The notes below the pieces were generated by a model, which did not search any database, had not been told where the DNA came from, and saw only the letters and a program-made list of their open reading frames with translations. Shown here piece after piece: positions 690 through 58,422 of a stretch of DNA of 64,000 nt. Made by a program: the position numbers and the translations under genes. The stretch is from Amoebidium appalachense (lineage: Eukaryota; Protista; Ichthyosporea), in contig CAVNZM010000006.1 in NCBI GenBank assembly GCA_963693365.1, positions 4,054,267 to 4,118,266 of the forward strand, written 5' to 3'. The first letter of the stretch is position 1; every line of letters begins with the position of its first letter.

Positions 690-972
690 TTCCCCTCCTG
701 CCTGATCGTGCATACTCTTCCTGCATTATGTTGTCCGCCATGCATCTGCACTCAGTACTCTATAACACATTCTACACCCCCACCCCCACCCCTCCCACCC
801 CACCCCTCCTCCTCCCCCCTACCCCTTCCTCCCTCTTCCCCTCGTCTTCTTTTATTTCGTGCCACTGACAAAATGTCCCTTTTGCAGCTACACCCGAGGT
901 TGAGGAGAACCTTCCACCCACTTCCTCGGTGCCAAATCTCCAGCACTCCCCAGGTGTGCGCACACACCTGCT

Positions 973-2155: not shown

Positions 2156-4852
<2,697 letters not shown>

Positions 4853-9394: not shown

Positions 9395-16554
<7,160 letters not shown>

Positions 16555-26210: not shown

Positions 26211-38980
<12,770 letters not shown>

Positions 38981-40753: not shown

Positions 40754-41617
40754 TCAAACTACTGTCTTGCTAGCTCTCCTCTTCCCGCACACTGGCAGCA
40801 AAGAGCTCACAAACTTATGCAGCGATATTCTCCTTCCGAGCTTGTTCTGGCTCGTCGTTTTAGGGGCCAACGCAGGTCCACTGGTCACCTTGACGACGAC
40901 GGTCTTATCACTCTCAGAGGCACGCACGGCAAGATATTGCTTGAATGCAGCCGCAAACCGCACGGCCATGTGGGAGGGCATTGTGCAGATTTCAAGGTCC
41001 CCACGACCCACCCAAAACTGTGCCTCATCTAGCGACCACAAAACATCGCGATCTGGAAGACCCAGAAGGTTTTCCCCGGCGACTTCCACGATAGTATGAC
41101 CTGGAATGAGGCCGGCGGCAGCAGCCTGAGTTCCTGGACGGACTGCAATGATCTCGCTGCTGAAGTATGTTATCTCGGACGAGATGAGCCTGTTGCACCG
41201 TGTGGTGATGCGGTGTGTGAAAGGTGACTGGAGAAACTCCAGGTGCACTCTGCTGCCGACGTCCAGAAGACGTTCAAGGTCACGTGGGTCCTTACCACGG
41301 GCCATAGTTAGGCCAACACTCAAAAGCTCATCCCCCCACTCAAGACCGCACCTAGCACCGGGTGTAAAACGTTTAGCGTTGCATGTGTGGCGGTCCTGGA
41401 CGTGGATAACGAAAAGACGGCCTTCAATTTCGCATAGCTTGACACCAAACCATTCTCCCTCCTCCTTTGTTACGCGTACTTCGCGCTTTAGTGGGCCTGA
41501 AAAGTCGTATTTTGACTCCTCTGGGAGCTCGTATGTGGAACTTCCCTTGCTAAACACTGTTAGAGAAGAGAGTGTCATTGTGGAGGGCTGCGCCCTTAGC
41601 TCGTGTGCGCGCATCAT
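40754..41617 (-). CDS. Syntenin-like tandem-PDZ protein, intronless (287 aa)
   Basis: REVRVTKEEGEWFGVKL...LFVIHV...GLEWGDELLSV...PFTHRIT...IIAVRPGTQAAAAGL...HTIVEVAGENLLGLPD...ICTMP follows the syntenin PDZ1-PDZ2 pattern; long ORF free of low complexity. Confidence 0.88.
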   Translation of the reverse strand: MMRAHELRAQPSTMTLSSLTVFSKGSSTYELPEESKYDFSGPLKREVRVTKEEGEWFGVKLCEIEGRLFVIHVQDRHTCNAKRFTPGARCGLEWGDELLSVGLTMARGKDPRDLERLLDVGSRVHLEFLQSPFTHRITTRCNRLISSEITYFSSEIIAVRPGTQAAAAGLIPGHTIVEVAGENLLGLPDRDVLWSLDEAQFWVGRGDLEICTMPSHMAVRFAAAFKQYLAVRASESDKTVVVKVTSGPALAPKTTSQNKLGRRISLHKFVSSLLPVCGKRRASKTVV

Positions 41618-42687
41618 TTTCTAGTAGTTGTAAGGTGTTGGGATATTATGCGTTTTCTTTCAGACTTCTTTCTTTCTCATAGGCTTGTTTCTTTCTCAAT
41701 ACACACGCGGCTAAAGTTATGAGGGCTGGCTCGTACACCTGATAAAGAAAAAACTTGACGAAACAGACTTGTGACAAAGTTCTGATGAAGAAGAATTGAC
41801 CCTATTCAAGCTTTTAAAGCTTTCGAACAAAGATGGAATGTGCCTCTTCAAGCCCGACCAATCCGCGCTCATTCCAGTGCGAGGCATTCCTCAAATTCCT
41901 TTTTCCCACTTGATTTATTGACAATGATTAGGCCAACAGCATGGTTATGCAGCGGTTGCATTCATTCAGCCATACAGTAATACTTTTCTCATTGCTAATT
42001 TTTTTCCGAAAGTAAATGAAAATGAGTGTTCTGTAAATAAGATAGTAAAGAATTTTGGGGATGCCGTCTCTCCATTTGGCGAAACCGCCATTTCGCCAAG
42101 ACCCAGAAATTGGCGGAAATGGATTATTTATATCTAATTGATCCAATCAGGTACGAGTACATCGGTTCCCTAAACTCCGGCTCGGCTGAGTCGGCTCCAT
42201 GCTTTCTCAAAATTTAATTTGCCGCAGTCATTGCAAGCTTAGTTCTGGCCAAGGGCCCAAGACTCCGCGCAAATATCATTTGAAGTATTCAAATCAACAA
42301 AAAGGGAAATGAAACATGGTTTATGTAAATTGAGTATTCATGTACGGTAATATTCCAAGTTTTGGACCAGCTGTAAGCATTATTATGATTCATGAAACCT
42401 GATAGCATCACATTTCTAAAGTAAAACCCCCATTGAAAACAGTAGATCTGAGCTCGGGGATCTATTATTAGTGACGTTGGATCGATAGTCTAATGGGGGT
42501 TTACGCTGTTTACTCGAGGCAAAGAGAACCAGTCTCAGGTATGGGGGGGGTTTTGCTCGGAATATCCCCTCAGCGGTATATCATGATCACGTACATAGAT
42601 GTCGGGTGGTGACTATATATCAGGGTTTACTTTCTCTACGAGACACCATAAAGACTACAAGGAGAAATCAATTAGTTGGGGTTCCCC

Positions 42688-44049: not shown

Positions 44050-46061
<2,012 letters not shown>

Positions 46062-48499: not shown

Positions 48500-48731
48500 C
48501 GACCTGAAGTATGTGCCGGAGTGCACGTTGGGGAACCATTTTCTTGGGTTCCTGAGAGGACACACACATCAGCACACCACTCATAAACTAACAAGATTCA
48601 ACAATAAAAATTGAGTAAGCCCCCCTCCCCCTCTCCCTCCCCTAACCCACTCCCCCCAAAAAGGTCACACACAGACGCACAGACACAGAATCACGCACAC
48701 ACACACGCACACATGCACACACGCACACACA

Positions 48732-48762
<31 letters not shown>

Positions 48763-49024
48763 CAAACGCGCATGCACACACATACGCACGCACAAACGCG
48801 CGCGCGCGCACAATCACCACCACCAATTAAGGAGAGATACTCCCCCCCCCCCCCCCCCCCCCAAACATACACTCTCACCAGCTTTCCTATCCATCCCTCC
48901 TCCCCTCCCCCCCCCCCCCCCCTCTCCCCCAACCCCCACTAGCACCAGCACCACCACCACCACCATCACACACACACACACACAAGCACACGCACACGCA
49001 CACGCACACACACGCACACGCACG

Positions 49025-49055
<31 letters not shown>

Positions 49056-50228
49056 TACCCTGATTGAGCCAATCGAGCAATCTACCTACATTCCGCGGGG
49101 GGGGGGGGGGGGGTTTGAATGCGTCAAAAAGTACGAAGTACACAAGAACAAACGGATAACACGATGCAGAATGCAAGCCATACATAAAGAGTATGCATAA
49201 TAAGCAGAGCCCATCCTCAGGGGGGGCCCACGTCATCCACAGTACCCGAGTTTCGACCTATTCCCCTCGTTAACGAAACCCAACTCAGATACTGTTTCAC
49301 TTGAACATGAGTAGGTCACCCGTCTTGATCAGAGACGAGCAGGGTTGCTTATGCAGGGGGGGGGATTCCTGGACGCCCCGGGAAAAATAAATAAAACAAG
49401 ATAAAAATGAACAAATAAACAAGACACGAAAAAAGCAACAGGGAGAAAAAAACAAACAAAAAAAAACAAAACCAAACATGCGCGTGCAGACACAGAAATA
49501 GAGAAAACACACGTACGCAAGAACACACACACACATGCACGCATGCACAAGCACACATACACCACCCGATAACCCTTCCCCACCTCCCATCCTCCCTCCC
49601 TCCCCCCCCCCCCCCCCCCCCCCCCCAACCACCACCAAATCCTTTCAGCCCCACAAATGGAAATCTTTTTCACCCCACCATTCCCTTCCCTCATTGTGAT
49701 GCCCCTGTTTTCTATAACCCCACCCATATGACAACCCACACAAAAAGCAACCCACCTAATCCTACACAGCACACACACAGCTTGTCATCAAGTCCAACAT
49801 GACCGTTCGTATATTGACCCCCCCCCCCCCCCACACGCACTTCTTGTTTAAGAAGCTGAAGACCAACCCCCCCCCCCCCCCCCCCCCCCTGCACAACACA
49901 CCCACCCACCCACCCAGCAAAAAGAAATGAGAGATGTTTTTCCCCTTCAAGTTGTTAGTGGAAATACAAAAGAAAGAGAAGAACGAAAAAACACATTTCT
50001 TGTTAAGAGAGCTGAAGATTAAAACCTCCCCCCTCCCCTCTTCAACCCCCCCGGCACCTTCTCCCCCTATCCCATCCCATTCCCTTATCCCCACGCCCTC
50101 CCCCCCCAAAAGCACACACACAAAAGAGAGAGGCTTTTCCTTTCAAATTGTTCGTGGAAATGCAAAAGGAAAGAAACGAAACATGCACTTCTTGTTTGAG
50201 AAGCTGGATATTATCCCCCCCGTCCCAG

Positions 50229-50262
<34 letters not shown>

Positions 50263-50590
50263 ACCTCCACCACCCTCCCCCGGGCTACTTACCCCCCCCT
50301 CCCCCCCCCCCCCCCCCCCCCCCGCTCACCCCCCCCCCCACAAAAAAAAGAAAGAAAGAAAGAAAGAACGAAACACACACACACACGCACGCAGCACACC
50401 CGAAACAGATATGTTTTTTTCCCATTCAAGTTGTTCGTGGAAATTCAAAAAAAAGAAAAAAGCGCAGCACTTACTTCTTGTTTGAAAAGCTGATGCTGTG
50501 GCCGGACTGAATGCCCTTGCCCCCATACAGCCCCCTCTGCGCACGGTTGGGCTGTGACGCACGGAGGAAAAAGTTGCGCGCACCGAGCAT
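46620..50590 (-). CDS. MRPL28: Mitochondrial ribosomal protein bL28m; exons 50475-50590, 48504-48551, 46620-46959
   Basis: MLGARNFFLRASQPNRAQRGLYGGKGIQSGHSISFSNK-KNPRKWFPNVHSGTYF-SDILDREISLRMTSQVIRTIDKMKGFDNYIL is the L28-family signature with a mitochondrial-type presequence; GT-AG junctions in phase. Confidence 0.93.
49113..49357 (-). mobile_element. Young full-length copy 7 of the structured dispersed repeat, in an MRPL28 intron
   Basis: Differs from 56294-56538 at only three positions. Confidence 0.92.
49835..50495 (-). repeat. Degenerate tandem duplications of the MRPL28 exon end / 5' splice-site region
   Basis: Plus-strand ACTTCTTGTTTGAAAAGCTGA-like motif at ~49839, ~49995, ~50187 and 50473 (the real exon end); TTCAAGTTGTTCGTGGAAAT-like motif at ~49946, ~50141 and ~50425. 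Confidence 0.8.
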
Positions 50591-50850: not shown

Positions 50851-51424
50851 AACTGTATGCATGCATTGCGAGTGTGAGTGAGTGTACTTTGGGTGTCTGT
50901 GTGTGTGTTGCCAGTGTATGTGTGTATTGTAAGTGTGTGTGAGTGGGTGTGTGTGTGTGTGTGTGTCTGTTGTGCATGTGTGTGTGTGTGCGGGTTGTAT
51001 ATGTCGGTTGAGTGAACATGTGAGTGAGCCAGTGAGTGTTTGTGTGTTAGTGTTAGTGTGTGTTGTGTGTATTGTGAGGGTGTGGATCGGAAATGTCCGT
51101 GTGAATACTTGCGTGTGTGGGGAGGTAGGGAGGGTGGTAGGGAGGTAGGGACGGAGGGAGGGAGGGATGGATTGTGTGAAAATGTGTCTGTTAGCCTTTG
51201 TTCGAGCGTGTGAAAAGCATGACCAGGTGAAGGATGGATCCACAAAGACACTGAACCAGGCAAGAGACCACTTGCTACCGCAAAAACACGGGCATATGCT
51301 CATATATTCACAGCGACAAGGTTGGAGGGAGGAAGGGGGGAGAGGGGGGAGGGGGGGTGAGGAGCGTGAAATTAATCTATTTTGGGGTGTGCATTCGCCG
51401 CCAAGAGAAGAAGGGGGGGAAAGG

Positions 51425-51535
51425 GGTTTAATATGTGTTATTGAGTACGAAGTAAACATTCATAACGGGCAACAAAACGCAGAGTGCAAACCATACAAAA
51501 AGAGCATGCACAATCAGAGGAACCCATGCTCAAGG
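51425..51535 (-). mobile_element. 5'-truncated, diverged copy 8 of the structured dispersed repeat
   Basis: Plus strand AGTACGAAGTA...ACGGGCAACA...GCAGAGTGCAAACCATACAAAAAGAGCATGCA...CCCATGCTCAAGGGG is collinear with 49130-49225. Confidence 0.75.
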
Positions 51536-53039
51536 GGAAGGGGGGAGGGGGGGACGGGGGAGGGAAGGGAAATGCATAGATACCGGGTGTAAGAAAACAA
51601 AATGCACACAAAGATTTCCAAAGCAACAACAATACAGACAAAAAGGACCAAAAACTACAGGAAATAGCAACCAACTGTGCATGGGCAGCCCTTCCTTAAC
51701 CCCCCCCCCCCCCCCCCTGGGTGAAGGAACAACGGGAGCAGGGCAAAACACAAGAAGGAAAAACCAAACAAATAGTATACTGACACCGTGGTGGAGCGAG
51801 AGAGAGAAAGAGGAGGGGAAGGAGGGGGGAAGAGAGAAGGGTGATAGGCATGAACGCCCATCCAGAACCACAGGTGAATGCTACACAGATGTTAATTGCA
51901 ATAAACCAAACACTAGAAGAAAAGAAAGTACAAGCGATAATCCCAAAGTGGGACCCACATCTGCCAGTGGGAAGCGAAAAAAGGGGAGAAGGGAGAGAGA
52001 GGTGAGGGAGTGGAGCTGGACCAAAGAGCTCCTCATCCATTCAAACAGGTCACCAAGCAACCAGAAACGTTAAAACGACGCAGTGATGGGGTTGGCAGGG
52101 GAGGTGTGCAGTGGTAGCAAGGTCGATAGCAGACGAAGAGAGCAGCGATCGATGACTTCAGTGAGCTACAGTTGATAACATCTACCGTTTCCTCAATCCA
52201 AAAGTTGCCACCACAAAACAATGCACAGCCCCATATGCCCCTGCCGAGTATACACGACGACCTATGCGAGAACACATGCACACAGATGAAGAGAGAGAGA
52301 GAGATAGAAAGACAGAAAAGCTCGCATAAACCACTTGCACGCATGCTAACACGCACAACACGCTTACACCACGCTTACACGTGAAACCTTGGTGGGAAGC
52401 CCAACCGAAGTCTTGAAGCTGCTGTTAAGTACAAGAACCATTCTTCCCCAGAAGCCAAAAGCAAGAACCATATCAGGCACAGCCTGGCCACTCCAACAGG
52501 CGTATATACAGGCATGATGTAAAGAGGGTCAAACAAGGATGTTTAAAAGGCATAAAATACACGGCCCGCATAGAGAGAAGAGAGGGGGGAGAGCGTGCGA
52601 GAGAGAGAAAGGGGTGGGGTGGGCGGAGAGGGGAAGCAGGGGCGCGGGGGGGGGTGGGGGGGGGGGGAAGAGGGGGGGAGGGGGGGGGGGGGGGGGGGAG
52701 GGGGGGGAACAGGGGAGAGAGAGAGAAGAGAGGGGGGGGGGGGGGGGAGCCATAGAGAGATAGAACGCACCTGCCAAAGGTTTGGTTTAAGTGTGGCTGA
52801 CAGGTTTCAATACTGGGGCTCTGAGGCACACACCGCCTTGTGCATTGAATGAATGAATGAATTTTCACAGAGTCTGAGGTCTCTAGTTGGTCTTCGAGTT
52901 TTACCTGAGTATTTTCCCGTAACTGCTCGTATGCTTGCACTTTACACCGTGTGTCAAGAAACTATACCAACTGAAAAAGGTAACCTAAATACACACGTAC
53001 ACGTGATCACGTTATCCCTTTCTCAAGTTCCGTGAGACT

Positions 53040-53575: not shown

Positions 53576-54205
53576 ATGTCTGAACCAGCGCCCGCATCGG
53601 CGGCCACGGTAGCAGCCCCTGTGCAGGCAGGCACTGAGGCTAGTGTGCTTGCAGATGTTAGCCCCAAAATCGTGTTTGAGTACTGCCTGGGCTGCAGATG
53701 GGGTCTGAGGGCAGGATGGCTTGCACAGGTACGTTTGTGTGCTTGCGGTAGACACTATTTTTTCCTGTTTTGGGTGACTGATGCATTAGGTGCCATGGTG
53801 CCCCATGGAGGTTAGAGCACATGACTGTGTCCCTGGTCATCAGGGCTGTTTAGGGCTGTGAAGAGTGGAGCTCCGGTTGGCGTATGGGTGAAAGTGTGTT
53901 TTTTGCTTCCCTCGCATCCCCCACGCCTGTCTGCTAGCTCAGATCTTGTGTCTCTCTCCCCCCTCTGTCTCTCGCTCCCTCCCTTCCTCTCACCCTCCCC
54001 CCGCCCCCTCTTCCTCCCACCCCTCCCTTCCTCCCTCCTCTCCCTCTCCCTCTCCCTCTCCCTCTCTCCCTCCCCGCCCTCCCCCCCCCCCCCCTCTCTC
54101 GTTCCCTCTCTCCCCCCCCCCCTCCCCCCTCCCTCCCTCCCTCCCTCCCTCCCTCCTTCCCTCCCTCTCTCCCTCCCTCCCTCCTTCCGTCCCTGCCACC
54201 CCTCC

Positions 54206-54236
<31 letters not shown>

Positions 54237-54969
54237 TTCTTTCTCTTCTGTGTGTGTGTGTCTCTCTCTTCCGCGCCTTCCACGTCTATCCCACTCTCTC
54301 TCCCCCTCCCACTCCGCCTTCCTCCCCCCTGCCTACGCTCACCTCCCCCTGCCTCCTCCTCCCCCCCCTCTCTCCCCTCCCCTCGTCTCCCAAGCCCCTT
54401 ACTCCCTAACTCCCTCCCCCTCTCACTTTCCCACCTTCCTTTCCACCCGCAACGCCTCTGCCGCCCAGTTCTCCTCCCTCCCTCACTCCCCCCGCTCTCT
54501 CCCTCCCTCCCCCACCACCTCCCCTCCCTCCTTCTGCTACAGCCTGTGCACCCCCCCCTCCCCCCCCCCCCTCCTTTCCCCTCCTCCCTTCCCTTCCTTT
54601 GTGTATTGACGGGCACGGGGACCGGGGCTTTTCTTTCCCTCCCTCCCCTCCCTCCCTCCAACCCCACTTTCCATTTCTAATTTCAGCCGTGTTTCCGCAG
54701 GAGCTTTTAGTCACGTTTGAGGACCAAATCAAAGAGGTTTCCATGCGGCCAATACGCCAGCCTGCCGGCACATTTCGTGTGTGGGTGAACTCTGAGCTGA
54801 TTTTCTGCCGAAAGAAGGAGGGCAGGTTTCCAGAAACAAAGGAGTTGAAACAGGTGGGTTTGATGTGCAACACGTGTGTTTGGTGGGCGTGTGCGTCGTT
54901 GAGTGTGTGTGGGGGGTCGTTTTGCAGGTGTACGTTTGTTTGTGTGTGTGTGAAGGGGTGTGTGTGTGT

Positions 54970-56293: not shown

Positions 56294-56296
<3 letters not shown>

Positions 56297-56543
56297 TGAA
56301 TGCGTCAAAAAGTACGAAGTACACAAGAACAAACGGATAACACGATGCAGAATGCAAGCCATACGTAAAGAGTATGCATAATAAGCAGAGCCCATCCTCA
56401 GGGGGGGCCCACGTCATCCACAGTACCCGAGTTTCAACCTATTCCCCTCGTTAACGAAACCCAACTCAGATACTGTTTCACTTGAACATGAGTAGGTCAC
56501 CCATCTTGATCAGAGACGAGCAGGGTTGCTTATGCAGGCAAGG
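56294..56543 (-). mobile_element. Young full-length copy 9 of the structured dispersed repeat, downstream of and antisense to the Rdx gene
   Basis: Near-identical to 49113-49357; 5' end CCTTGCCTGCATAAG shared with copy 5. Confidence 0.92.
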
Positions 56544-57210
56544 GCAGTGGGAAAGGCCGGGGGTTAAAGTTGCAGCAGTAAGCAGAAGCAAGAAAAATAT
56601 AGATAGGAACTCAGGAGACGGGGCTTCTAGGAAGCTCCCCCGTCGATACCTAAGTCGATACTTCCCTGGCTAACATACTACACCAGCTGAAAAGAATTAA
56701 GTCCCGAAGGCCGCAGAATTCGCAATCAGAGGGGAAAATATGAGATTTGACCCACGCCGCAGGGTAGTAACACGCTTACTAGGGCGGAACTTTATCGTCT
56801 TCGAACGGAAAGCTATGCCCCCGGATGTCAGCCGGAAATGTGGTATCACCCATTGCTTTGGGCTTGAAAAAAGCCAAACCGATAGTCCGAGTTATGTTAC
56901 GCCGGCGGGTAACATGCCGCATGGGTTCCAAGGGAGCTGTCGCCAACAGAGCGGTGTGTGCATGCGTGCGCGTAACGCAATGTGTGAAGTGTGTCTATAG
57001 CTATGAAAGGGGGTATGCAGAAGTGGACAGATGAAGTGTGTGGAGAGAAAAACAGTAAGAAGAAAAGTAGACACCGGTATGTGCAACCCCGCACAACATA
57101 CACACACACACACACACACACATAAATAAGCGAAGATTACAGGTAATCAACCAGAACAACAAATGACAAGGAAAACAACAAACGCCAAAAAAAAAAAAAA
57201 AAAAAAAAAA

Positions 57211-57264
<54 letters not shown>

Positions 57265-57289
57265 GGGGGGGGGGGGGGGGGGGGAGGGG

Positions 57290-57322
57290 GGTCTTAGGGA
57301 TGCTGCAGAATCGTCAGATATT

Positions 57323-57360
<38 letters not shown>

Positions 57361-57722
57361 GGGGGGGGGGGGGGGGGGAGGGGGTCTTAGGGATGCTGCA
57401 GAATCGTCAGATATTAGACAAATCGTACCAATACGATCATTCTCTCATATATGTGAGAAGATTGTGACTAACGATGTGCAGAGCTGGTTAAGACCTGTTG
57501 AGTGTGCAGAGAAAATGGGAGGGGAAGGAGGGGGGGGGGGGGGGGGGAGGGGGGGGGGGGGGGGGGGGGTGAAGTAAGAGAGGGGAGGGAATGTTAGAGT
57601 GTCAGTAGTCTCAGGGGACCCTGCAGAGTCGTTAGATGTCAGACAAAAACGCACCAACGACCAAGTTCTCCGAGGGGAGAAATGCGTAAAACGTTCTGCA
57701 GAGTGGGTTAGAGACCTGCTGA
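57290..57722. repeat. Second repeat family: ~110-bp fold-back unit in two diverged copies (57383-57495, 57607-57716) plus an exact partial copy (57290-57326)
   Basis: GTCTTAGGGATGCTGCAGAATCGTCAGATATTAGAC occurs twice exactly; GTCTCAGGGGACCCTGCAGAGTCGTTAGATGTCAGAC is the diverged version. Confidence 0.8.
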
Positions 57723-57835
57723 TGAGAAGAGTGTATACAGGGTTTGGCCAGGGGGGGGGGGGGGGGGGGAAGGGGGGGAAAGAAGGTAGAAGGGGAAGGG
57801 GGGGGGGGGGGGAGAGGAGAAGGAAAAAAAAAAAA

Positions 57836-57967: not shown

Positions 57968-58422
57968 CTGTGGTGGACAGATCAGAGACGAGACCTCCAT
58001 TTCAAAACTTACCAGGCAACCCAAAAACCTAGCCGGCTGAGAAAGAAGAACGGCGGGGGAATTGTTTGGGAAAAGGAGCGGGGGGAGAGAGAGGGGGGGG
58101 GGGGGGGGGGGGGGGGGGGGAGAGGGGGAGAGAGAGAGAGAGGGAGGGAGAGAACGAGAGAGAACGAAAGAGAGAGAGAGAGGGAGACAGAGAGAGAGAG
58201 AGGGAGAGAGAGAGGGAGGGGGGGGGGGGGGGAGGTGTAGGGGCTGGTAGGGGGGGAGGGGGGGGGGGAGGGGGGGGGGGGGGGGGGGGGGAAACCGGGA
58301 CAGAGTGGGGGACTAGGGAGTGTTGATCTTTTTAGTGATGATGGAGAGTATGTGAGAGGAGTGAACGCCACGGTATATGTGCGGGTGTGTGGCGAGAAAG
58401 CTGTGCATTTTGTGGTGCAAGA

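What the first reader, a model, noticed from the sequence alone, without database searches (positions are those of the whole stretch)
49113..49357. Structured, C-tailed, sense-biased intronic repeat family: candidate new retroposon or intronic RNA system
Seen: nine homologous segments in 64 kb (708+, 3686+, 15963+, 31772-, 33260-, 33997-, 49113-, 51425-, 56294-). All keep the same 3' end (...ACRCATTCWA-like) running into poly-C or C-rich sequence, and six lack variable amounts of the 5' part. Eight are sense to the surrounding gene: seven in coding-gene introns and one upstream of the MRPL28 ATG exon. I see no tRNA A/B boxes, TIRs, poly-A tail or clear TSD. Known: a fixed 3' end with 5' truncation is the hallmark of target-primed reverse transcription, and intronic retroelements are usually biased antisense, not sense. 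Inference: a non-autonomous RNA-mobilised element that either carries a poly-C tail or targets poly-C/G tracts. It could be seeding the many homopolymers here and may be transcribed passively from host introns.
Basis: partly seen in the sequence, partly recalled or inferred. Interest (0 to 1): 0.85.

Follow-up and report, generated by a model that had tools for sequence, protein, structure and literature searches.

The report
Rewired hammerhead ribozyme in protist retroposon
A very abundant repeat in Amoebidium, a single-celled relative of animals, sits in runs of C inside introns, likely spreads through an RNA copy, and carries a predicted self-cutting RNA whose parts are wired in a scrambled order that, in the papers searched, was known only from environmental RNA.

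Summary
The repeat family is real, but the 245 bp are only its 3' third. The window is from Amoebidium (MRPL28 identical to a named EukProt protein). The element is at least 780 bp (56295-57074, minus strand), non-coding, very high copy, 5'-truncated with a fixed 3' end. C-runs often lie on both sides, so (C)n is more likely the target than a tail. The sense bias is explained by C-runs lying mostly on the sense strand (86 of 115). This behaviour matches Chlamys Penelope-like elements; no autonomous partner could be searched for. It is kept in two subfamilies about 70-80% alike. A k-turn, a 13-bp stem III and a 6-bp stem II with compensatory changes point to a 'split-core' wiring, in which stem II comes from an upstream strand. 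Cleavage is predicted at 49282|49281 and is untested. Covariation rests on two or three sequences. Unchecked notes from this scan report similar designs in animal HERO and Naiad elements. Verdict: new variant of a known kind.

The parts
56295..57074 (-). Longest copy (780 bp) of the young subfamily; followed by C43 and then (AC)n; not in an identified gene
   Evidence: A 783-nt contig lies on 56304-57057 with 4 differences; high summed depth up to 57063; two contigs leave the window sequence at 57074
49114..49357 (-). Young 5'-truncated copy (3' 244 bp) in MRPL28 intron 1, between a C9 and a C17 run
   Evidence: 3 differences from the 56294 copy, all CpG transitions
49318..49340 (-). Hairpin Pa (8 bp, 7-nt loop), directly 5' of the stem II strand
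   Evidence: same pairing in the 33260 copy
49312..49317 (-). Predicted stem II, 5' strand in the split-core model (G10.1 = 49317); pairs with 49255-49260
   Evidence: 6 of 6 Watson-Crick pairs; A-U to G-C change in the 33260 copy; variants at 49313 and 49259 both about 4% in two runs
49295..49311 (-). Helix P0 and k-turn, bulged strand (3-bp C-stem, 3-nt bulge, G.A, A.G, A.G); pairs with 49227-49239
   Evidence: the 33260 copy has the same pattern with another bulge and U.U; k-turn consensus recalled
49279..49295 (-). Block S: stem III 5' strand, U16.1 (49283), H17 = U (49282), predicted cut at 49282|49281, stem I strand 49281-49279
49267..49276 (-). 10-nt perfect palindrome in the linker between blocks S and G
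   Evidence: different palindromes at the same place in 33260 (8 nt) and 2878 (6 nt) and in 15963 (10 nt, read by eye)
49239..49260 (-). Block G: stem II 3' strand, GAAA (49254-49251), stem III 3' strand (13 bp)
   Evidence: pair probabilities 0.87-1.0; hairpin z -3.7
49214..49223 (-). Block C: stem I strand (49223-49221) and the CUGAGGA core (49220-49214)
   Evidence: core intact in 49113, 56294, 33260, 15963 and 31772
33260..33546 (-). Copy of a second subfamily with the complete predicted ribozyme (core at 33388, GAAA at 33422, predicted cut after 33454)
   Evidence: the subfamily is seen as loose ends and contigs in runs X1, X9, X17, X20
15946..16126 (+). Truncated copy that begins within 1 nt of the predicted cut site; poly-G upstream; in a putative hydrolase gene intron
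   Evidence: reference span starts at 78; the predicted 3' product starts at 77
31773..31925 (-). Truncated copy with a short tandem duplication at its 5' junction; C-runs on both sides
33993..34106 (-). Truncated copy directly after a C33 run
51424..51537 (-). Truncated copy upstream of the MRPL28 ATG, starting at the internal C-run
701..785 (+). Short old 3' fragment, C-rich on both sides
3679..3760 (+). Short old 3' fragment
2873..2947 (+).

Best explanation
This is a very high-copy, non-coding Amoebidium repeat of at least 780 bp with a fixed 3' end, variable 5' truncation and C-runs at its flanks; it is likely a retroposon copied from RNA by a partner's reverse transcriptase into (C)n runs, and its 3' part is predicted to fold into a self-cleaving hammerhead ribozyme of non-circularly permuted, split-core wiring. 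Steps. (1) Inferred: an endonuclease of an autonomous partner, most likely a Naiad/Chlamys-type Penelope-like element, nicks a (C)n/(G)n run. (2) Inferred: reverse transcription starts at a fixed point about 170 nt downstream of the predicted cut site and usually stops early; second-strand joining often uses C microhomology, so any target duplication is hidden in the C-run. (3) Shown: C-runs lie mostly on the sense strand of these genes, which accounts for sense-oriented intronic copies. (4) Predicted: stem III, a k-turn and helix P0 fold back and bring CUGAGGA to the cleavage site and GAAA; stem II is supplied by an upstream strand, so A9 is not linked to G10.1; the RNA would cut after GUU at 49282|49281. 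(5) Speculative: the cut trims element RNA out of read-through or intronic transcripts, or allows circularisation.
For: High copy: 6,979 and 4,414 contigs laid in two DNA runs; summed depth 0.37-1.35 million on the element against 14-20 on the unique flank (the tool warns this is no copy number). Length and truncation: depth in X1 is 0.70-1.26 million over the 3' 270 bp, then 0.66, 0.49, 0.31, and 0.20-0.28 million up to 57063. 13 of the 15 joints shown link 13 different internal positions to a G-run, i.e. truncated 5' ends preceded by poly-C (65 more not shown). Non-coding: no Pfam hit in six frames apart from one at E 0.89; no homologues; two hits that are repeat-summing artefacts. Precedent: Chlamys elements target (C)n and (CA)n, hide TSDs, are 5'-truncated, have non-autonomous members and lack canonical hammerheads, and some Naiads carry a 'half core' with the second half 35-50 nt away on either side; here the distance is 34 nt. 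New Chlamys insertions had a median of 128 bp and were all intronic. Ribozyme: all core nucleotides are present in the order S-G-C in 3 of 3 copies that span the region, and these are the only 3 hits in the 64 kb on both strands. 0 of 3,000 shuffles per copy gave such a hit with stem III of 8 bp or more; with the cores fixed, 12 of 5,000 and 9 of 5,000 did. Split-core model: 95.8% of 72 cells paired and 4 two-sided changes, against 24-46% paired for slid controls. None of the 15 variant sites listed falls in the core or stem III.
Against: No autonomous partner was seen: no genome is held. Self-cleavage is untested. Covariation rests on 2-3 sequences; 18 of 500 shuffles reach the observed score, and the structure was derived from these same sequences. 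The k-turn and split-core checks were made after reading other agents' notes, so they are post hoc. Stem I is only 3 bp in the young subfamily (4 bp in 33260). Nested folding gives P0 and the k-turn C-stem low probability (0.02-0.09), and a competing hairpin sequesters the core at 0.13-0.21; ViennaRNA does not model k-turns or pseudoknots. The whole 245 nt and the whole 780 nt fold no better than shuffles (z -0.39 and +0.75). Depth shows no step at the predicted cut site, and only 1 of 9 copies starts there. The joints are visible only when the other side matches a G-run in the laid stretch, so they give no fraction. The 56294 copy has a private C11.1-to-U change and no C-run at its 5' end.
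Confidence: 0.6

Rival explanations
1. Same retroposon and same rewired ribozyme, but the element is the 3' UTR, or a non-autonomous derivative, of a restriction-like-endonuclease LINE (HERO-like), not of a Penelope-like element.
For: A fixed 3' end and 5' truncation fit any target-primed element. The 5' end of the master is not pinned, because 57087-57390 was skipped as repeat. Unchecked AI notes describe a permuted hammerhead with a k-turn scaffold in HERO 3' UTRs.
Against: The (C)n preference with hidden TSDs is documented for Chlamys. One X1 contig shows a copy's 3' end directly upstream of a truncated copy, like a partial tandem (table 5c). The paper search for HERO with hammerhead gave 0 papers.
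Confidence: 0.22
2. A plain type-SGC hammerhead: stem II is formed by the GG that follows CUGAGGA-U, and GGGC/GCUC is the helix joining stems I and II as in HRIMA-1.
For: The block order is S-G-C. One extra U after A9 also occurs in the validated SGC-3 (read from its oligos). G10.1-C11.1 is kept, and a 4-5 bp 'I' helix can be drawn in 4 copies. An ATG sits at this position, as the ORF start does in the Penelope-like element PAc.
Against: This stem II has only 2 bp before a G.G mismatch, against 6 Watson-Crick pairs with compensatory changes for the upstream strand. The 'I' helix competes with P0, which the k-turn needs.
Confidence: 0.1
3. A (C)n-targeting retroposon whose 3' structure is only a protein-binding signal for the partner RT, or a decayed ribozyme; it does not cleave.
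For: Weak stem I, competing folds and no depth step at the cut site. In PAc the hammerhead was not needed for insertion in vitro and cleaved only with protein.
Against: The 13 core nucleotides are kept across subfamilies that differ by 20-30%, with correctly placed partners for all three stems.
Confidence: 0.25
4. Not RNA-mobilised: a non-autonomous DNA element (MITE or Helitron/Helentron type), or a host intronic small RNA gene family.
For: An internal inverted repeat closes the first 165 nt of the 245-bp part, and a box C/D-like k-turn is present.
Against: The ends of the 780-bp copy are not complementary. Truncation is one-sided. No Rfam family. Thousands of variant contigs do not fit a snoRNA gene family.
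Confidence: 0.05

Closest known systems
Chlamys/Naiad Penelope-like elements and their non-autonomous members (MRC1, Chlamys-N4_cRei); PMC8557442, PMC9977147
   Same: (C)n and (CA)n targets, no discernible TSD, strong 5' truncation giving short intronic insertions, no canonical hammerhead, split 'half core' noted in some Naiads
   Different: Reported from green algae, spike mosses, slime moulds and animals; Amoebidium and Ichthyosporea have 0 hits in the supplement. No ORF or partner is shown here. A complete permuted ribozyme fold was not described there.
Type-SGC non-circularly permuted hammerhead ribozymes (HRIMA-1 and variants); PMC10085705
   Same: Order cleavage site, GAAA, CUGAnGA; all core nucleotides; pseudoknotted core
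   Different: Found there in metatranscriptomes and none in genomes of known organisms. S-G linker typically 3 nt, here 18-22 nt with a palindrome. HRIMA-1 stem I has 5 bp, here 3-4. That paper assumes CUGAnGA is contiguous with both stems; here stem II is better formed by an upstream strand, and a k-turn scaffold is predicted.
Type I hammerheads in PLE pseudo-LTRs and non-LTR retrozymes; PMC4209133, PMC11167929, bioRxiv 10.64898/2026.07.22.740005
   Same: Hammerhead near the 3' end of a retroelement; extra nucleotide after A9; palindromic segment; RT start about 100 nt beyond the core
   Different: No canonical-order hammerhead in the monomer; dispersed, truncated intronic copies rather than tandem arrays
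tRNA-, 5S- or 7SL-derived SINEs (recalled)
   Same: Non-coding, high copy, fixed 3' end
   Different: No Pol III RNA head, no poly-A tail, heavy 5' truncation, C-run target

Membership tests
Non-autonomous Naiad/Chlamys Penelope-like element | Insertion bias for (C)n or (CA)n with no discernible TSD | tested here: met
   C-rich 3' flank in 9 of 9, C-rich or C-run 5' flank in 5 of 9; joints to G-runs. No empty site was seen.
Non-autonomous Naiad/Chlamys Penelope-like element | Frequent 5' truncation with a fixed 3' end | tested here: met
Non-autonomous Naiad/Chlamys Penelope-like element | Partial tandem insertions (pLTR), inverted 5' copies, 30-40 bp tail | tested here: inconclusive
   One contig with a head-to-tail junction (table 5c) and a short 5' tandem duplication at 31772; none in the 780-bp copy
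Non-autonomous Naiad/Chlamys Penelope-like element | No canonical (type I-III) hammerhead | tested here: met
   0 canonical-order hits in 5 copies, both strands; Rfam Hammerhead_1 only 14.2 bits against a cut-off of 34
Non-autonomous Naiad/Chlamys Penelope-like element | Shares its 3' end with an autonomous element encoding an N-terminal GIY-YIG, CxC and RT | not testable with these tools
   No genome held; collection scans found no true copy
Type-SGC hammerhead ribozyme | Block order S, G, C with all conserved core nucleotides | tested here: met
   definition
Type-SGC hammerhead ribozyme | CUGAnGA contiguous (0-2 nt) with its stem II strand | tested here: inconclusive
   The contiguous stem II has 2 bp; the non-contiguous strand gives 6 bp with compensatory changes, which argues against strict membership
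Type-SGC hammerhead ribozyme | Helix joining the distal sides of stems I and II | tested here: inconclusive
   A 4-5 bp helix can be drawn but competes with P0
Type-SGC hammerhead ribozyme | Statistically supported covariation | tested here: inconclusive
   4 two-sided changes, 18 of 500 shuffles, only 2-3 sequences per pair
Type-SGC hammerhead ribozyme | Site-specific self-cleavage lost in a core mutant | not testable with these tools
   Needs an in vitro assay
HERO-like RLE LINE or derivative | RT plus restriction-like endonuclease ORF upstream, or a 3' end shared with such an element | not testable with these tools
   No ORF similarity within the 780 bp; sequence beyond 57074 in other copies was not retrievable
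Pol III SINE | tRNA-, 5S- or 7SL-derived head | tested here: not met
Non-LTR retrozyme | Tandem units each with a type I hammerhead | tested here: not met
   Dispersed copies; no type I fold in the monomer
MITE or DNA transposon | Terminal inverted repeats | tested here: not met
   Ends of the 780-bp copy read directly

The most novel reading that the evidence does not exclude
An active hammerhead ribozyme of a wiring not in print (S-G-C order, backbone broken between A9 and G10.1, k-turn scaffold) is the 'missing' ribozyme of Naiad/Chlamys-type retroelements. It is carried by tens of thousands of sense-oriented intronic copies in a unicellular relative of animals, so it predates animals or moved between lineages, and intact young copies could cut host pre-mRNA inside introns.
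Probability: 0.4. Interest if true: 0.85.

Novelty: new variant of a known kind. Interest (0 to 1): 0.68.

Why it matters
Non-circularly permuted hammerheads were reported from environmental RNA and metagenomes, with no type-SGC example in a known organism's genome, and Naiad/Chlamys elements were said to lack canonical hammerheads. A split-core, k-turn-scaffolded version in a culturable protist, with thousands of natural variants, would make both questions directly testable: deep covariation from one genome and a short in vitro assay. It would widen the rules used to search for hammerheads, give the first such element in Ichthyosporea in the papers searched, and raise the question of how sense-oriented self-cleaving RNAs are tolerated in introns. 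The retroposon behaviour itself (C-run targeting, intronic, truncated) is already known from Chlamys.

Tried and rejected
No whole genome is held. Rfam: 153 matches in the window at E up to 5, none at gathering score; those listed are driven by simple repeats. Local scans gave Hammerhead_1 at 14.2 bits and CPEB3 at 13.6 bits, E 1.8, at 56712-56800; by eye the HDV-like fold lacks proper P1.1 and P2 and was rejected. Collection scans: viral contigs 0, 0 and 5 loci, the 5 being chance matches; metagenomes 71 loci, none matching beyond about the pattern; prokaryote genomes 0. Coding tests: six-frame Pfam, the 71-aa sense ORF, the 34-codon frame from the ATG in the core and the 99-aa antisense ORF gave nothing real. 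A Pfam scan of the window's intergenic blocks for RT or endonuclease remnants was not completed; I saw none by eye in the translations printed, which is weak. Expression: no holder is on record as RNA; run X20 is only guessed to be RNA and is contigs, so its cover (174 and 1,201 contigs) is not used as evidence. No empty insertion site was seen. Three weak extra copies (30038-30131, 4291-4420, 15706-15750; E 0.01, 0.045, 0.61) score below the best hit of the reversed-window control (E 0.0033) and were left out of all counts. The first pair count used a mis-registered 5' hairpin and misaligned stem I columns; it gave 78.5% paired and 84 of 500 shuffles, and was replaced, which counts only one stem I pair. 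A canonical-order hammerhead can be drawn in a head-to-tail dimer of the short copies but uses the same weak 2-bp stem II. Look-ups of earlier findings by sequence, by place and by four other word sets returned nothing.

Full report
Source. No genome is held for the window. The last MRPL28 exon is identical to a protein named by EukProt as Amoebidium parasiticum, so the window is from Amoebidium (Ichthyosporea). That protein fixes MRPL28 intron 1 at 50474..48552. The window holds 85 C-runs and 117 G-runs of 9 or more bases. The genome paper says about half the genome is transposable elements; its main text has 0 hits for 'Penelope' and 'SINE', and so do its 2 supplementary text files (PMC11244446; passages and supplement search only). 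Its repeat library was not available to me and may hold this family unclassified.

Observation. BLASTN with the 245 bp finds 6 of the other 8 named copies and a new internal fragment at 2873-2947. The copies at 708 and 3686 are supported by their match to each other and by local alignment. A profile search ranks ten copies at E 5.7e-9 or better, nine of which were its own seeds; the best hit in a reversed-window control is E 0.0033, and three weaker candidates were dropped.

True extent. Laying public contigs shows a very large family: 6,979 contigs in X15 and 4,414 in X1 fit the 49113 region, with summed depth of 0.37-1.35 million against 14-20 on the unique flank. The tool warns that this is no copy number. 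Ten copies per 64 kb over an assembly of about 170 Mb would be roughly 25,000, a rough extrapolation. A 783-nt contig in run X17 matches 49097-49357 with 0 differences and 56304-57057 with 4. Depth in X1 falls stepwise from the 3' end and stays at 0.20-0.28 million up to 57063; two contigs leave the window sequence at 57074. The element is therefore at least 780 bp. The master may be longer, as 57087-57390 was skipped as repeat. A second subfamily (33260 type) has its own 5' extension. The three differences between the two young copies are all CpG transitions, in keeping with the methylation of young TEs reported.

Tail or target. All nine named copies have C-rich 3' flanks. Four have at least 75% C in the 20 nt upstream and a fifth begins in a C9 run; background is 7-9% of windows at 60% C or more. 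Thirteen of 15 joints shown connect different internal positions to a G-run, and 70 contigs in X15 have poly-G loose ends at the internal C7 run. This fits insertion into existing C-runs with C microhomology at the 5' junction. The joints are pre-selected by what was laid, and no empty site was seen, so a templated C tail is not excluded. Most C-runs are not tied to this family: 14 of 159 clusters passed a loose motif test, and by eye only 4 of them are real 3' ends.

Sense bias. Eight of 8 intronic copies are sense (p 0.004 at 50:50). But 86 of 115 C/G-runs in six gene spans have C on the sense strand, and against that rate p is 0.098. The copies also lie in only four genes. Gene spans other than MRPL28 are my reading of splice-like motifs. 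In the MRPL28 span itself the skew is reversed (6 C against 9 G).

Coding. Six-frame Pfam and three protein searches found nothing real.

The RNA. A weak Rfam Hammerhead_1 match covered only stem II, GAAA and stem III. A descriptor search then found no hammerhead in canonical order, but all core nucleotides in the order cleavage site, GAAA, CUGAnGA in 49113, 56294 and 33260. These three are the only hits in the window with stem III of 5 bp or more. Shuffles gave 0 of 3,000 per copy with stem III of 8 bp or more, and 12 of 5,000 and 9 of 5,000 with the cores held in place. This order is type SGC, validated in vitro by Eckert et al., who found none in genomes of known organisms (PMC10085705; abstract, parts 3-4 of 8, discussion part 1 of 2, passages, supplement search). 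Stem III has 13 bp in 49113 and 8 plus 4 bp with different letters in 33260. Stem I changes from GGG/CCC to GGAG/CUCC. The S-G linker holds a perfect palindrome of different sequence in four copies (10, 8, 6 nt; 10 nt in 15963 by eye), against background rates of 2.3%, 9% and 29%.

Refinement. Unchecked notes by other agents mention a k-turn scaffold and a split core in animal HERO and Naiad elements. I then tested both here. [quoted passage not shown] Beyond it a 6-bp helix P0 returns the strand to the core. An upstream strand (49317-49312) gives stem II six Watson-Crick pairs (chance 0.017 in shuffled upstream sequence; the 4-bp equivalent in 33260 has chance 0.29), against two pairs for the strand that follows the core. 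Two variants that would convert one of these pairs from U-A to C-G occur at matching 4.1-4.4% in X1 and X15; their linkage is not shown. On alignment A1 the split model has 95.8% of 72 cells paired and 4 two-sided changes; 18 of 500 shuffles reach this, and slid controls give 24-46%. Against it: few sequences, a post hoc model, short stem I, low nested-fold probability for P0, a competing hairpin, no overall folding signal and no depth step at the cut site. One copy (15963) starts within 1 nt of the predicted cut, which is anecdotal.

Which partner. Craig et al. describe Chlamys elements that target (C)n and (CA)n, hide TSDs, are 5'-truncated and have non-autonomous members, and Naiads with half cores 35-50 nt apart; Amoebidium, Sphaeroforma and 'Ichthyo' have 0 hits in the supplement (PMC8557442; abstract, passages, sections 6, 9, 10, 15, supplement searches). 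New Chlamys insertions in Chlamydomonas were short and all intronic, following their (C)n target (PMC9977147; passages). In the Penelope-like element PAc, RT starts 111-118 nt into an ORF that begins at hammerhead stem II, and the ribozyme needs protein (PMC11167929; passages); here the 3' end lies about 100 nt after an ATG at the end of the core, a hint only. PLE hammerheads are type I, often with an extra base after A9 (PMC4209133; passages), and vertebrate retrozymes are tandem type I arrays (bioRxiv 10.64898/2026.07.22.740005; part 1 of 5). I put Naiad/Chlamys ahead of a HERO-like LINE, but could not test it, so the element is filed as working like a non-autonomous Chlamys element, not as a member.

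Novelty. Searches for 'type-SGC' (1 paper), non-circular permutation with retrotransposon (3 papers, two seen only as listings), permuted hammerhead with Penelope (5 papers), kink-turn with hammerhead and retrotransposon (1 unrelated paper), HERO with hammerhead (0), Amoebidium with Penelope (0) and Ichthyosporea with hammerhead and Penelope-like (0) showed no description of this family or this wiring. The library lacks most subscription papers. The retroposon behaviour is known; the ribozyme wiring and its host lineage are what is new. Similar designs were already noted, unchecked, in other windows of this scan.

Noticed in passing
window 57575-57775, 57385-57510, 57287-57326 (-): A second repeat family flanked by C-runs: two copies about 70% alike and an exact 40-bp duplicate of one 3' end; summed depth 2,000-12,000 in X1.
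   Followed up: partly
window 50139-50206, 49941-50015, 49839-49859 (-): MRPL28 intron 1 holds three decayed repeats of the exon 1 end and donor region, 76-90% alike.
   Followed up: no
window 56712-56800 (-): Weak CPEB3/HDV-like Rfam match (13.6 bits, E 1.8) inside the 5' part of the element; stems poor by eye.
   Followed up: partly
window 56995-57074 (-): The first 7 nt of the 780-bp copy pair with a strand about 75 nt downstream, closing a long pyrimidine-rich loop.
   Followed up: no
window 57980-57992 (-): Exact 13-nt match to hairpin Pa of the element; may be chance or a remnant.
   Followed up: no
whole window: 202 C- or G-runs of 9 or more bases against 44 A- or T-runs; C-runs are skewed to the sense strand, 86 of 115 in six gene spans.
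   Followed up: partly
window 32060 and about 30790 (-): Two putative introns of the minus-strand gene seem to begin with GC rather than GT, read by eye.
   Followed up: no
window 44250-44557: Tandem repeat with a unit of about 115 bp, 86-89% alike.
   Followed up: no
window 40754-41620 (-): Intronless open frame of 288 codons in an intron-rich neighbourhood; not searched.
   Followed up: no
window 53600-54900 (+): Two-exon Rdx-family (SelW-like) gene with a CxxC motif.
   Followed up: no
contig of run X1 joined at window 49253: Letters inserted at the joint look like short telomere-type repeats (table 5c).
   Followed up: no
runs X5-X24: The young subfamily is held with all or most sampled words in 20 runs under 8 organism codes and 7 studies, including tiny assemblies; 16 may be sources of this DNA.
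   Followed up: partly
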